This document shows positions 3,478 through 3,861 of a DNA stretch of 44,624 bases, piece after piece. Positions within the stretch are counted from its first letter, which is position 1. Each line of letters opens with the position of its first letter. A program made the position numbers and the translations under genes. A model generated the notes under the pieces. It searched no databases and was not told where the DNA came from. It saw only the letters and a list, made by a program, of their open reading frames with translations. Source of the DNA: a virus; the IMG/VR virus record IMGVR_UViG_3300028840_001024; one strand, given 5' to 3'.

Positions 3478-3622
3478 TAAAATAAATCAGTGGGTTTTAA
3501 GGTGCGATAGGTGCGATGGAGAAAAGGTCCGCGCCGTACCTTAAACGGTAGATGATACCGGTTCATCGTTGCACTGACCAGACAGTAAGCTGGAATCGCC
3601 TATTAAGCGAATACAAATTGGA

Positions 3623-3687
3623 TCTTTATGTTGGTGGTTCAAGTCCGCCCGGCTGAGAAGCTGTAGCTCAATTGGTAGAGCAAAAGA
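3623..3687 (+). ncRNA. circularly permuted tRNA-like module
   Basis: Elements in order: 5-bp stem 3623-3627/3683-3687; 5-nt variable-like ATGTT; T arm GGTGG-TTCAAGT-CCGCC (3633-3649); 5-bp hairpin CGGCT-GAGA-AGCTG (3650-3663); TA (3664-3665); D arm GCTC-AATTGGTA-GAGC (3666-3681); A 3682. Confidence 0.5.
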
Positions 3688-3751
3688 ATTGTAGAGTTCT
3701 TGGTTCTCATAAAAACCTTGAAGGAACTCCAAATACAATAACATTGAACAT

Positions 3752-3814
3752 TTAATATCCGATTAACCGAATGCTATAACATCCGACGACCGAATACGAT
3801 AAATCCGATTAACC
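3752..3814 (+). promoter_or_regulatory. possible promoter (TTAATA-17 nt-TGcTATAAC) overlapped by three direct repeats ATCCGA(T/C)(T/G)A(A/C)C spaced 24 and 22 bp; candidate operator of the downstream RHH gene
   Basis: Repeats start at 3757, 3781 and 3803. The extended -10 is at 3772-3780. The RHH CDS starts at 3862. Confidence 0.3.
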
Positions 3815-3861
3815 AATCTTCAGGCTTATCGTATCTTAAAACCCACTGATTAAAGGTGTAT

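What the first reader, a model, noticed from the sequence alone, without database searches (positions are those of the whole stretch)
3485..3851. 367-nt ORF-free locus closed by a 28-bp helix whose only imperfections are G-U compatible on the + strand
There is no plausible + strand ORF between the stop of 3184..3477 and the RBS of the RHH gene (3862). The - strand track ORFs here lack any RBS or protein-like character. Bases 3485-3512 (AATCAGTGGGTTTTAAGGTGCGATAGGT) pair with 3824-3851 over all 28 positions: 24 Watson-Crick pairs plus 4 G-T pairs (3502/3834, 3504/3832, 3510/3826, 3512/3824). On the - strand those four would be A-C mismatches, so the asymmetry argues for a + strand RNA helix rather than a plain DNA palindrome. 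The enclosed 311 nt contains several hairpins (3546-3560, 3578-3593, 3596-3610, and a long bipartite hairpin at 3694-3729), a tandem GGTGCGATA duplication (3501-3518) and a tRNA-like core, which is reported separately. A long closing helix, an ornate interior, tRNA-like content and a phage location recall large phage-associated ncRNAs such as GOLLD and ROOL. I cannot match this locus to any of them by eye. The alternative is a MITE-like insert bounded by 28-bp terminal inverted repeats.
Basis: seen in the sequence. Interest (0 to 1): 0.7.

Follow-up and report, generated by a model that had tools for sequence, protein, structure and literature searches.

The report
New phage RNA with protein partner
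The 367-nt gap is a real, folded non-coding RNA on the + strand, one member of a previously uncatalogued phage RNA family that always sits just after a small conserved protein gene; in this phage it carries a tRNA look-alike in its middle.

Summary
In detail: 3485-3512 pairs with 3824-3851 over 28 positions (24 Watson-Crick, 4 G-U).

Homologous elements lie directly 3' of the orthologue of the upstream 97-aa gene (3184-3477, DUF6847-like). This holds in 47 of 48 IMG/VR contigs, in further metagenome contigs, and in cultured Vibrio phages of the Zobellviridae.

Across 20 members the closing helix changes sequence completely but stays paired: 89% of cells are paired against 63% in shuffles, and 26 of 27 pairs show compensatory changes. 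G-U outnumbers A-C 62 to 9 on the + strand, so this is a + strand RNA, not a MITE or a DNA palindrome.

The family shares a long P1, a short P2, an H-type pseudoknot, a hairpin with a palindromic GC-rich apex, a variable centre, and a largely unpaired 3' domain of CCGAMU/GAAC repeats. No Rfam 15 model matches this scaffold.

The centre holds one of three things: a real tRNA, a permuted YrlA-type tRNA mimic (this window, 3604-3709, 36 bits against a threshold of 69, no Ro60 gene in the phage), or neither.

Function is unknown. My best guess is a nuclease-excised RNA-protein particle with interchangeable tRNA-type cargo. The closest analogies are GOLLD/ROOL and Y RNAs; it is a member of neither.

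The parts
3184..3477 (+). Gene for a 97-aa DUF6847/DIP1984-like helical protein, the conserved partner of the RNA
   Evidence: Pfam DUF6847 33.2 bits (cut-off 27), matching profile positions 66-141. About 2000 homologues, the best 120 at 75-88% identity. The RNA follows this gene in 47 of 48 IMG/VR loci. Fused tandem duplicates exist.
3485..3512 (+). P1, 5' arm of the 28-bp closing helix
   Evidence: Covariation in 20 members: the outer helix is 94% paired and 15 of 15 pairs have double changes.
3513..3516 (+). Junction GCGA (family consensus GCGU) between P1 and P2
   Evidence: Conserved columns in alignments A2 and A4.
3517..3521 (+). P2, 5' strand (UGGAG); pairs with 3818-3822
   Evidence: Helix 3: 88% paired, 4 of 5 pairs with double changes (UGGAG/CUUCA, UAGGG/CCCUG, UUGAGG/CCUCAA and others).
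3524..3548 (+). H-type pseudoknot: S1 is 3524-3528 with 3538-3542 (AAGGU/ACCUU); S2 is 3534-3537 with 3545-3548 (CCGU/ACGG)
   Evidence: One search lists 14 distinct S2 strand combinations and, for S1, the core variants GGU/ACC, GCA/UGC, GCG/CGC, GUG/CAC, GGC/GCC and GGG/CCC. S2 is 94% paired; the three core pairs of S1, which are not in the model, are paired in 84-98% of cells.
3551..3567 (+). P4 hairpin (GAUGA/UCAUC) with loop UACCGGU; the apex palindrome ACCGGU is at 3557-3562
   Evidence: 98% paired, 4 of 5 pairs with double changes. The script found an apex Watson-Crick palindrome in 22 of 27 members; 4 further members show one by eye in the sequences. The random expectation is 0.18.
3578..3593 (+). 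P5 hairpin (CCAG/CUGG, loop ACAGUAAG)
   Evidence: A similar hairpin with an AACAGUAAA loop occurs in L176 and L185.
3604..3709 (+). Inserted YrlA-type (Y RNA-like) permuted tRNA mimic. Anticodon-like stem 3623-3627/3683-3687; variable loop 3628-3632; T-arm 3633-3649; GAGA-capped acceptor hairpin 3650-3663; U8 A9 at 3664-3665; D-arm 3666-3681
   Evidence: Rfam YrlA 36.3 bits, E = 3e-6, below the gathering score of 69. ARAGORN finds no tRNA or tmRNA here. The closing stem covaries with L185 (ACUUG/CAAGU) and L159 (AACUUU/AAAGUU). The module is absent from most family members.
3724..3817 (+). Conserved, largely unpaired 3' domain made of CCGAMU and GAAC repeats
   Evidence: nhmmer profile hit 3720-3848, E = 4e-23. 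CCGA occurs 5 times in 100 nt against 0.18 expected. RNAalifold predicts almost no pairing here.
3818..3822 (+). P2, 3' strand (CUUCA)
3824..3851 (+). P1, 3' arm

Best explanation
SHOWN. Positions 3485-3851 encode a + strand structured non-coding RNA. It belongs to a conserved family of phage RNAs of about 275-380 nt that no Rfam 15 model matches. The family always lies directly downstream of, and in the same orientation as, a small, very conserved DUF6847-like gene (here 3184-3477). Gene and RNA together form a two-part module found among otherwise unrelated phage genes. The scaffold consists of a 20-31-bp closing helix P1, a junction, a 5-6-bp P2, an H-type pseudoknot, a hairpin whose apex is a GC-rich palindrome, a variable centre, and a 3' array of CCGAMU/GAAC motifs. 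In this phage the variable centre holds a permuted, acceptor-capped tRNA mimic of the YrlA (bacterial Y RNA) type.

INFERRED, each step roughly 0.3-0.5 likely. (1) The RNA is co-transcribed with the protein gene and the downstream genes, since no terminator lies between them. It is then cut out at the long perfect P1 duplex by a double-strand-specific nuclease such as RNase III, much as ribosomal RNA precursors are processed. (2) The co-encoded protein, probably a dimer, binds the repeated single-stranded 3' motifs to form a stable RNA-protein particle, and the palindromic P4 loop lets two RNAs kiss. (3) The particle displays or carries tRNA-type cargo: real tRNAs in many phages, a tRNA mimic here. 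It thereby acts on host tRNA biology, either as a decoy or sponge for a tRNA- or Y-RNA-binding host factor, or as a protected delivery form for phage tRNAs.
For: The helix and its strand. Homologues: the upstream protein has 1993 relatives at E <= 1e-3, and every contig fetched has a 320-1000-nt gene-free stretch after it that holds the same architecture with different helix sequences. Covariation: 29 of 49 pairs are compensatory in 7 sequences. In 20 sequences 89.3% of cells are paired against 62.7% in shuffles (0 of 500 shuffles reach it), 26 of 27 pairs have double changes, and slid controls give 37-55%. Strand: 62 G-U against 9 A-C. Linkage: the 3' domain profile hits the + strand downstream of the gene in 47 of 48 IMG/VR loci, in a MAG contig and in Vibrio phages 1.264.O and PS32B.1. 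All 5 true hits of an RNA-only pattern scan lie on contigs that carry the gene: 4 in the fetched stretch, and L237 on the contig of L194. A covariance model of the 5' core finds 47 of 53 loci. The pseudoknot and P4 are supported. Not catalogued: only tRNA or YrlA hits, all to the cargo, in 13 members. Cargo variability. For the inferred steps: no terminator in 2900-4200; a conserved unpaired repeat domain; fused tandem-duplicate proteins; palindromic apex.
Against: No expression data were available, so the transcript ends, the processing and the stability are all inferred. The protein has no known function or fold: the AF2 model is poor (pLDDT 59) and there is no PHROG, PADLOC or PDB lead, so RNA binding by it is a guess from synteny alone. 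More than half of the elements carry neither a tRNA nor a mimic, so a tRNA-centred function cannot be the universal one. A palindromic hairpin apex can also arise simply by extension of an inverted repeat. The window's version lacks one canonical motif: CUCCAAAU stands where relatives have UCCGAAU.
Confidence: 0.6

Rival explanations
1. The whole 367 nt is an enlarged bona fide Y RNA (YrlA). The closing stem would be the Ro60/Rsr-binding stem and the tRNA-like domain the effector module. The phage would use it to capture the host's Rsr-PNPase or RtcB RNA-repair machinery.
For: Rfam YrlA is the only significant match (36.3 bits, E = 3e-6). L185 and L191 give the same match. The topology is that of YrlA: T-arm, capped acceptor and D-arm closed by an anticodon-like stem. 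The T-loop UUCAAGU, G18 G19 and an A15:U48 Levitt pair can all form (rule taken from PMC4201824). CGAAU-type motifs recur (AGCGAAUAC at 3606-3614, ACCGAAUGC at 3766-3774) and resemble the GNCGAAN0-1G / GGUCCGA Ro-binding motifs described in PMC4201824.
Against: The score is below the gathering threshold of 69. The outer YrlA stem does not align (non-canonical pairs flagged). The strict GNCGAAN0-1G motif is absent. No TROVE/Ro60 gene is found among the ORFs of at least 110 aa in the 44.6-kb genome (41 of the 45 were scanned, see the full report), whereas YrlA RNAs are defined as lying within about 4 kb of one. Only 5 of 60 family elements carry this module, while the scaffold and the protein are constant. 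Only 1 of 120 viral loci that matched the permuted tRNA-like pattern (a mix of true capped modules and tandem tRNAs) has the scaffold.
Confidence: 0.12
2. It is mainly a cis-acting transcript element: a structured 3' UTR and processing site. It would stabilise the upstream mRNA, uncouple or tune expression of the flanking genes through cleavage at P1, and in many phages serve as an expression cassette for a tRNA. On this view it has no trans-acting role and forms no complex with the protein.
For: It starts 8 nt after the stop codon of 3184-3477 and ends 10 nt before the ATG at 3862 of the next gene, whose ribosome-binding site fills that gap. No terminator lies between the genes. 21 of 60 elements embed a normal tRNA, and further tRNA genes flank the module.
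Against: A simple processing site would not need a conserved pseudoknot, a palindromic-loop hairpin and a 100-nt conserved repeat domain. The downstream gene differs from phage to phage. The strict pairing with one particular, highly conserved protein (75-88% identity in the 120 best relatives, 49-81% in the IMG/VR loci) points to a functional partnership.
Confidence: 0.15
3. It is a DNA-level element: a replication origin or other protein-binding region. The CCGAMT repeats would be iterons and the palindromes operators bound by the DUF6847-like protein; the RNA folding would be incidental.
For: The motifs are direct repeats spaced about 23 bp apart. In the window and in the Vibrio phages the module sits in the replication region, next to a DnaB/SF4 helicase. 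The P4 apex is a perfect DNA palindrome.
Against: The G-U against A-C asymmetry (62 to 9) and the covarying pseudoknot are signatures of selection on a single + strand RNA. In other phages the module lies next to terminase or recombination genes instead. An origin would not need a 28-bp helix spanning 340 nt.
Confidence: 0.06
4. It is a MITE-like mobile insert bounded by 28-bp terminal inverted repeats.
For: The terminal inverted repeat. The module occurs in different genomic contexts.
Against: There is a single copy in the genome. The arms share no sequence between genomes yet stay complementary. The mismatches are G-U compatible on one strand only. No target-site duplication is present. The unit that moves includes the protein gene, which lies outside the repeats.
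Confidence: 0.02

Closest known systems
YrlA, the bacterial and phage Y RNA-like RNA (Rfam RF02553; Chen et al. 2014, PMC4201824)
   Same: The inserted module 3604-3709 has the YrlA topology: a permuted tRNA mimic with T-arm, loop-capped acceptor stem and D-arm, closed by an anticodon-like stem. It has tRNA-type tertiary-contact nucleotides, and it is the only significant Rfam match.
   Different: It scores half the gathering threshold. No Ro60/TROVE gene is in the phage. The strict GNCGAAN0-1G motif is absent. The module is embedded in a 367-nt scaffold that exists without it in most relatives.
GOLLD RNA
   Same: Phage-borne, elaborately folded, of unknown function, and found near tRNA genes. 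tRNAs are sometimes present inside a variable linker region (PMC12286853), just as real tRNAs sit in the variable centre of this family.
   Different: No match to the Rfam model. This RNA is about 300-370 nt, whereas GOLLD exceeds 800 nt, and its secondary structure is unrelated. GOLLD has no known dedicated protein; this family has an obligatory neighbouring gene.
ROOL RNA
   Same: Found in phages and prophages, often near tRNA islands, with several pseudoknots. It forms homo-oligomers (PMC12286853); the palindromic P4 loop here hints at self-association.
   Different: No match to the Rfam model. ROOL averages 581 nt and has no identified protein partner. Oligomerisation of the present RNA is untested.
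Precursor rRNA processing stalks and phage RNase III sites (established knowledge, not tested here)
   Same: A long, nearly perfect duplex formed by sequences flanking a structured RNA inside a polycistronic transcript.
   Different: Cleavage of P1 is only inferred. P1 may instead be kept as part of the mature RNA, as the terminal stem of Y RNAs is.
Protein-sponge small RNAs such as CsrB/RsmZ (established knowledge)
   Same: Several copies of a short single-stranded motif in one RNA, which suggests multivalent protein binding.
   Different: The motif is CCGAMU/GAAC, not GGA. The bound protein is unknown, and the rest of the architecture is unrelated.

Membership tests
YrlA (Y RNA-like, RF02553) | Score at or above the Rfam gathering threshold (69 bits) | tested here: not met
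   36.3 bits, E = 3.1e-6 for 3604-3709. No hit in gathering mode.
YrlA (Y RNA-like, RF02553) | tRNA-like domain in the order T-arm, capped acceptor stem-loop, D-arm, with tRNA tertiary-contact nucleotides | tested here: met
   T-arm 3633-3649 (loop UUCAAGU), acceptor hairpin CGGCU-GAGA-AGCUG 3650-3663, D-arm 3666-3681 with G18 G19, A15:U48 possible. The closing stem covaries in L185 and L159.
YrlA (Y RNA-like, RF02553) | GNCGAAN0-1G motif near the 5' end, the presumed Rsr-binding site (PMC4201824) | tested here: not met
   The aligned position reads AGCGAAUA (3606-3613): CGAA is present but both flanking G are A.
YrlA (Y RNA-like, RF02553) | Encoded within about 4 kb of a Ro60/TROVE gene, on the same strand (PMC4201824) | tested here: not met
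   Pfam scans of 41 of the 45 ORFs of at least 110 aa in the 44.6-kb genome found no TROVE domain. Two of the four unscanned ORFs were covered by precomputed Pfam hits; the other two are - strand ORFs of 113-138 aa inside + strand genes.
YrlA (Y RNA-like, RF02553) | Bound by Rsr/Ro60 | not testable with these tools
   Needs immunoprecipitation.
GOLLD and ROOL RNAs | Match to the Rfam covariance model or conserved core | tested here: not met
   Neither model hits at E <= 10 in 3300-4000 or at E <= 1 in 12 related loci.
GOLLD and ROOL RNAs | Phage location near tRNA genes; tRNA inside a variable region (GOLLD) | tested here: met
   A tRNA gene lies at 4855-4929. 21 of 60 family elements embed a tRNA, and others have tRNA genes flanking the module. 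This is an analogy, not membership.
MITE / transposon with terminal inverted repeats | Several copies with conserved ends, and target-site duplication | tested here: not met
   The arms occur once each in the window. Arm sequences are unrelated between genomes. The flanks (aaaata | aaaggt) are not duplicated.
tRNA or tmRNA gene (including permuted tmRNA) | Recognised by ARAGORN or the Rfam tRNA/tmRNA models | tested here: not met
   ARAGORN and Rfam find only the tRNA at 4855-4929. The acceptor stem at 3650-3663 is closed by a GAGA loop, so it has no free ends.
Retron msr-msd RNA | Inverted repeats a1/a2 next to a reverse transcriptase gene | tested here: not met
   No RT domain was found in the scanned ORFs of the window or among the genes called in related loci.
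Type III toxin-antitoxin (ToxIN-like) | Tandem RNA repeats upstream of an endoribonuclease toxin gene | tested here: not met
   The repeats lie downstream of the gene. PADLOC has no hit for the protein. The repeats are short motifs, not a tandem array of about 36 nt; this comparison rests on my own knowledge of ToxIN.
DUF6847-gene-associated phage RNA (the family defined here) | Directly 3' of a DUF6847-like gene on the same strand; P1 and P2, pseudoknot, P4, and the 3' CCGAMU domain all present | tested here: met
   nhmmer 5' core 3487-3595 (E = 2e-16) and 3' domain 3720-3848 (E = 4e-23). Covariance model R1 scores 66.4 bits at 3507-3589. Coordinates of every helix are given in 'parts'.

The most novel reading that the evidence does not exclude
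A portable two-gene phage module encodes a new kind of RNA-protein particle. A small dimeric helical protein would partner a pseudoknotted RNA of about 300 nt that pairs with itself through a palindromic kissing loop. The particle would carry interchangeable tRNA-type cargo: genuine tRNAs, Y-RNA-like permuted tRNA mimics, or bare anticodon-arm hairpins. It would serve as a decoy or sponge against host tRNA-targeting defences or the Ro60/RtcB RNA-repair machinery. That would make it a previously unrecognised class of phage counter-defence that works through tRNA mimicry on a dedicated scaffold.
Probability: 0.15. Interest if true: 0.9.

Novelty: categorically new. Interest (0 to 1): 0.78.

Why it matters
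Large, strongly covarying bacterial and phage RNAs are rare, and most have led to new biochemistry or remain famous puzzles (GOLLD, ROOL, OLE, raiA).

This family offers three handles that those lack. First, it has an obligatory partner gene conserved at up to 88% identity (75-88% in the 120 best relatives) across phages whose other genes are unrelated. Second, it shows a natural series of cargo states (tRNA, permuted tRNA mimic, none) on one scaffold. Third, it is present in cultured Vibrio phages (PS32B and PS35B series, 1.264.O) whose hosts are listed in the GenBank records, so expression, processing, protein binding and fitness can be tested at once.

It also places a Y-RNA-like tRNA mimic in a phage that has no Ro60 gene. 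That bears on what such mimics do outside the Ro60 context. If the function proves mundane, the finding still adds a well-supported new family to the RNA catalogues.

Tried and rejected
- **Close relatives of the phage:** megablast of 12 kb against GenBank phages found nothing. A distant blastn of the locus found only a D-arm-like 30-mer in Lak phages. DnaB-based loci in IMG/VR were at most 35% identical and of no use. DnaB homologues at 50-83% identity sit on contigs too short to reach the locus.
- **Known RNA families:** GOLLD, ROOL, RNase P, tmRNA, 6S and the rest gave no Rfam hit. An RNase P-like reading of GGAGAAAAGGUCCG was considered by eye and dropped, because no complementary P4 strand exists.
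- **Loose RNA pattern scan of IMG/VR:** only 5 of the 120 returned stretches were real.
- **Protein function:** NCBIfam DIP1984 scored below its cut-off. PHROGs, PADLOC and PDB sequence and profile searches gave nothing. Plasmids gave no match. The AF2 model was too poor for a fold search, so none was run.
- **Short contigs as transcripts:** short (about 600-1100 nt) contigs carrying the gene were examined as possible transcript assemblies; the one contig that reports its coverage is a 2x DNA fragment, and neither of the two fetched is informative.
- **Upstream regions of the gene:** nothing is shared beyond a ribosome-binding site.
- **Promoter-like sites:** not enriched.
- **YCCGAHT as a window-wide motif:** not enriched over the whole window; the enrichment is local.
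- **A preprint on coevolutionary mining of non-coding elements:** could not be opened.
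Full report
**Observation**

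The repeat finder reports the ungapped 25-nt core at 92% complementarity. The 20-nt arm occurs only at these two sites in the window, where shuffles give 0.02 by chance. As RNA the + strand folds to -117.2 kcal/mol (z = -6.5) with this helix closing the structure; the - strand gives z = -4.1.

**What is inside**

ARAGORN and Rfam in gathering mode find only a tRNA at 4855-4929. A permissive Rfam scan of 3300-4000 gives one significant match: YrlA, the bacterial Y RNA-like family, at 3604-3709 on the + strand. It scores 36.3 bits with E = 3e-6, about half the gathering score of 69. GOLLD and ROOL do not match.

The matched part is a circularly permuted tRNA mimic. Its elements are:
- an anticodon-like stem, 3623-27 with 3683-87;
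- a 5-nt variable loop;
- a T-arm, 3633-49, with a canonical UUCAAGU loop;
- a 5-bp acceptor stem closed by a GAGA loop, 3650-63;
- U8 and A9;
- a D-arm, 3666-81, with G18 and G19.

An A15:U48 Levitt pair can also form, one of the two combinations Chen et al. describe for YrlA (PMC4201824).

The other defining features of YrlA are not met. The GNCGAAN0-1G motif is only approximated (AGCGAAUA). The outer stem does not align. No TROVE/Ro60 gene was found among the ORFs of at least 110 aa in the window. Four of those 45 ORFs were not put through my own Pfam scans. Two of them (42650-43558 and 43558-43917) carry precomputed methyltransferase and DUF1937 hits. The other two are - strand ORFs of 113-138 aa that lie inside + strand genes.

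**Relatives**

The window is a complete circular phage genome of about 44.6 kb; it was assembled independently in three samples with different start points. It has no close relative in GenBank phages or IMG/VR, and its DnaB falls below 60% identity after three relatives.

The 97-aa protein encoded just upstream of the locus (3184-3477) behaves very differently. It is DUF6847/DIP1984-like. It has 1993 relatives at E <= 1e-3, and the best 120 are 75-88% identical. They sit on phage-sized contigs whose neighbouring genes are unrelated to each other: terminase and DUF551, Sak and YqaJ recombinases, a ProQ-like gene.

In every contig fetched, the gene is followed by a gene-free stretch of 320-1000 nt. 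Reading those stretches shows the same architecture as in the window, with helix sequences that are completely different but still complementary.

A protein-guided scan gave 48 IMG/VR loci at 49-81% protein identity. Profiles built from the 5' core and the 3' domain (nhmmer) find the 3' domain on the + strand downstream of the gene in 47 of the 48. They also find it in a MAG contig and in cultured Vibrio phages 1.264.O and PS32B.1 of the Zobellviridae. An RNA-only pattern scan returned 5 true members. Four have the gene in the fetched stretch, and the fifth (L237) lies on the contig of L194, which carries it. A covariance model of the 5' core finds 47 of 53 loci.

**Covariation and strand**

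With seven tRNA-free members, RNAalifold recovers the closing helix, and 29 of 49 predicted pairs show compensatory double changes.

I then aligned 20 members using only their ends. For the P1/P2 structure:
- 89.3% of cells are paired, against 62.7 +/- 1.5% in shuffles (0 of 500 reach the observed value);
- 26 of 27 pairs have changes on both sides;
- 156 cells have double changes, against about 50 in shuffles;
- sliding the partner by 1-3 columns drops pairing to 37-55%.

Among non-Watson-Crick cells there are 62 G-U but only 9 A-C, which would be the G-U pairs of the opposite strand. These cells are not phylogenetically independent, so the binomial p-value is only indicative.

**Family architecture, in window coordinates**

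- P1: 3485-3512 with 3824-3851.
- Junction GCGA: 3513-16.
- P2: 3517-21 with 3818-22.
- H-type pseudoknot: S1 is 3524-28 with 3538-42; S2 is 3534-37 with 3545-48.
- Hairpin P4: 3551-55 with 3563-67.
- Conserved GUWGCA.
- Hairpin P5: 3578-93.
- Variable centre.
- Roughly 100-nt conserved 3' domain: 3724-3817.

S2 occurs as 14 distinct strand combinations. S1 shows the core variants GGU/ACC, GCA/UGC, GCG/CGC, GUG/CAC, GGC/GCC and GGG/CCC. On a model-based alignment of 47 members, S2 and P4 are 94% and 98% paired. The three core pairs of S1, which were not part of the model, are paired in 84-98% of cells.

The apex of P4 is a GC-rich Watson-Crick palindrome: GCGC, GGCC, CCGG, UGCGCA, UUGGCCAA, and ACCGGU in the window. 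My script found it in 22 of 27 members, and four more show it by eye, against a random expectation of about 0.18.

The 3' domain is predicted to be almost unpaired. It consists of 4-6 copies of (A)AYCCGAMU interspersed with GAAC. In the window CCGA occurs five times in 100 nt, against 0.18 expected.

A second pseudoknot just before the 3' domain is likely in several members (seen by eye) but is uncertain in the window.

**The centre is cargo**

Of 60 elements examined:
- 21 embed a normal-order tRNA recognised by ARAGORN (Ile-GAU, Arg-UCU/CCU, Asn-GUU, Ser-GCU, Gln, Leu, His, Ile-UAU);
- 5 carry the permuted YrlA-type mimic (window, L159, L185, L190, L191);
- the rest carry neither; several of them, read by eye, keep an anticodon-arm-like hairpin.

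Real tRNAs are attached through their acceptor ends and the mimics through their anticodon stem. No single part of the tRNA is universal, so the constant parts, the scaffold and the protein, must carry the core function. Only one of 120 viral loci that matched the permuted tRNA-like pattern carries the scaffold, so the mimic is an independent module.

Twelve further members were scanned against Rfam at E <= 1. Only tRNA and YrlA hits to the cargo appeared, plus two weak hits (MIR5185, SorX) outside the elements.

**The protein**

It is predicted to be two long helices, but the model is poor (pLDDT 59), so I ran no fold search. It has no PHROG, PADLOC or PDB lead.

An exhaustive profile search finds only 160 representatives at 50% identity. 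About a third are 200-230 aa with two matched stretches, that is, fused tandem duplicates. This suggests that the 97-aa form acts as a dimer. Ordinary bacterial DUF6847 proteins of 150 aa appear only at E of about 1e-4.

**Alternatives**

- **MITE:** rejected. The locus is single-copy, the arms are not conserved, the mismatches are strand-specific, there is no target duplication, and the mobile unit includes a gene outside the repeats.
- **DNA iterons or an origin:** unlikely, given the strand asymmetry, the pseudoknot and the variable genomic context.
- **A genuine Y RNA working with host Ro60:** possible for the cargo module, but not for the family.
- **A purely cis-acting processing or stabilising element:** cannot be excluded, but it does not explain the conserved core or the protein linkage.
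- **Retron, type III toxin-antitoxin and tmRNA:** the features that define them are absent.

**Mechanism (inferred)**

All genes from 155 to 35238 are on the + strand, and no terminator-like site lies in 2900-4200. The RNA starts 8 nt after a stop codon and ends at the ribosome-binding site of the next gene.

I therefore propose the following. The RNA is co-transcribed with its neighbours and excised at the long P1 duplex by a double-strand-specific nuclease. The excised RNA assembles with the co-encoded, probably dimeric, protein on the repeated 3' motifs. It may dimerise through the P4 loop. It presents tRNA-type cargo. In this phage the cargo is a tRNA mimic that cannot be aminoacylated, which favours a decoy or sponge role. 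None of these steps has been observed.

**Comparison and novelty**

In kind, the nearest things are GOLLD and ROOL: phage RNAs near tRNAs, with tRNAs in the GOLLD linker and self-assembly into oligomers (PMC12286853). For the cargo, the nearest is YrlA. The element fails the membership tests for all three.

No Rfam 15 model matches the scaffold. Full-text searches for DUF6847 and DIP1984 found no paper, and searches for related terms found no description of it. A catalogue of about 10,000 unnamed viral candidate RNAs (PMC10690425) could contain fragments of it; I could not check this.

I rate it a new family, of high interest to RNA and phage biologists, with its function open.

Noticed in passing
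window 4855-4929: A tRNA gene called tRNA-Phe with anticodon AAA (ARAGORN; Rfam tRNA 43.7 bits). As far as I know an A34 Phe anticodon is unusual in bacteria and phages.
   Followed up: no
whole window: The window is a complete circular phage genome. The same sequence of about 44.6 kb was assembled with different start points in ERZ27256783, ERZ27256798 and SRR6963591.
   Followed up: partly
L018-L137 (IMG/VR loci): Permuted tRNA-like modules of YrlA type (T-arm, loop-capped hairpin, D-arm) are common in viral contigs: dozens among the first 120 pattern hits, mixed with tandem tRNAs. Only one of those contigs (L063 = L159) carries the scaffold family. I did not check whether the others lie next to a Ro60/TROVE gene.
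   Followed up: partly
P0241, P0245, P0251 (relatives of window 3184-3477): About a third of the 160 family representatives are 200-230 aa and consist of two tandem copies of the 97-aa unit, which suggests that the single-copy protein works as a dimer.
   Followed up: partly
window 3556-3562 and the equivalent P4 loops in 27 loci: The hairpin apex is almost always a GC-rich Watson-Crick palindrome although its sequence changes (GCGC, GGCC, CCGG, ACGU, AGCU). This is a possible kissing-loop dimerisation site.
   Followed up: partly
L139 3650-3828; L148 3590-3768: In some relatives a second non-coding stretch of about 150-190 nt follows the RNA. It is closed by its own long-range helix and ends in a run of T (for example AATGTCGGTG...CACCGACACCATTTTAATTTTT). 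The window has nothing like it.
   Followed up: no
L151 3152-3237, L153 3155-3229, L142 2350-2425, L152 2400-2475: Additional tRNA genes lie immediately after the 3' arm of the RNA or just upstream of the protein gene in other phages, so the module tends to sit in tRNA-rich neighbourhoods.
   Followed up: no
window 3501-3518: The tandem GGTGCGATA / GGTGCGATG duplication copies the conserved junction sequence (GCGA/U) into the inner end of P1. It could allow an alternative register of the helix. It is not seen in relatives.
   Followed up: no
window 3852-3864: The ribosome-binding site and start codon of the small RHH/HicB-like gene (3862-4047) directly abut the 3' arm of P1. Cleavage or unfolding of P1 could therefore affect its translation.
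   Followed up: no
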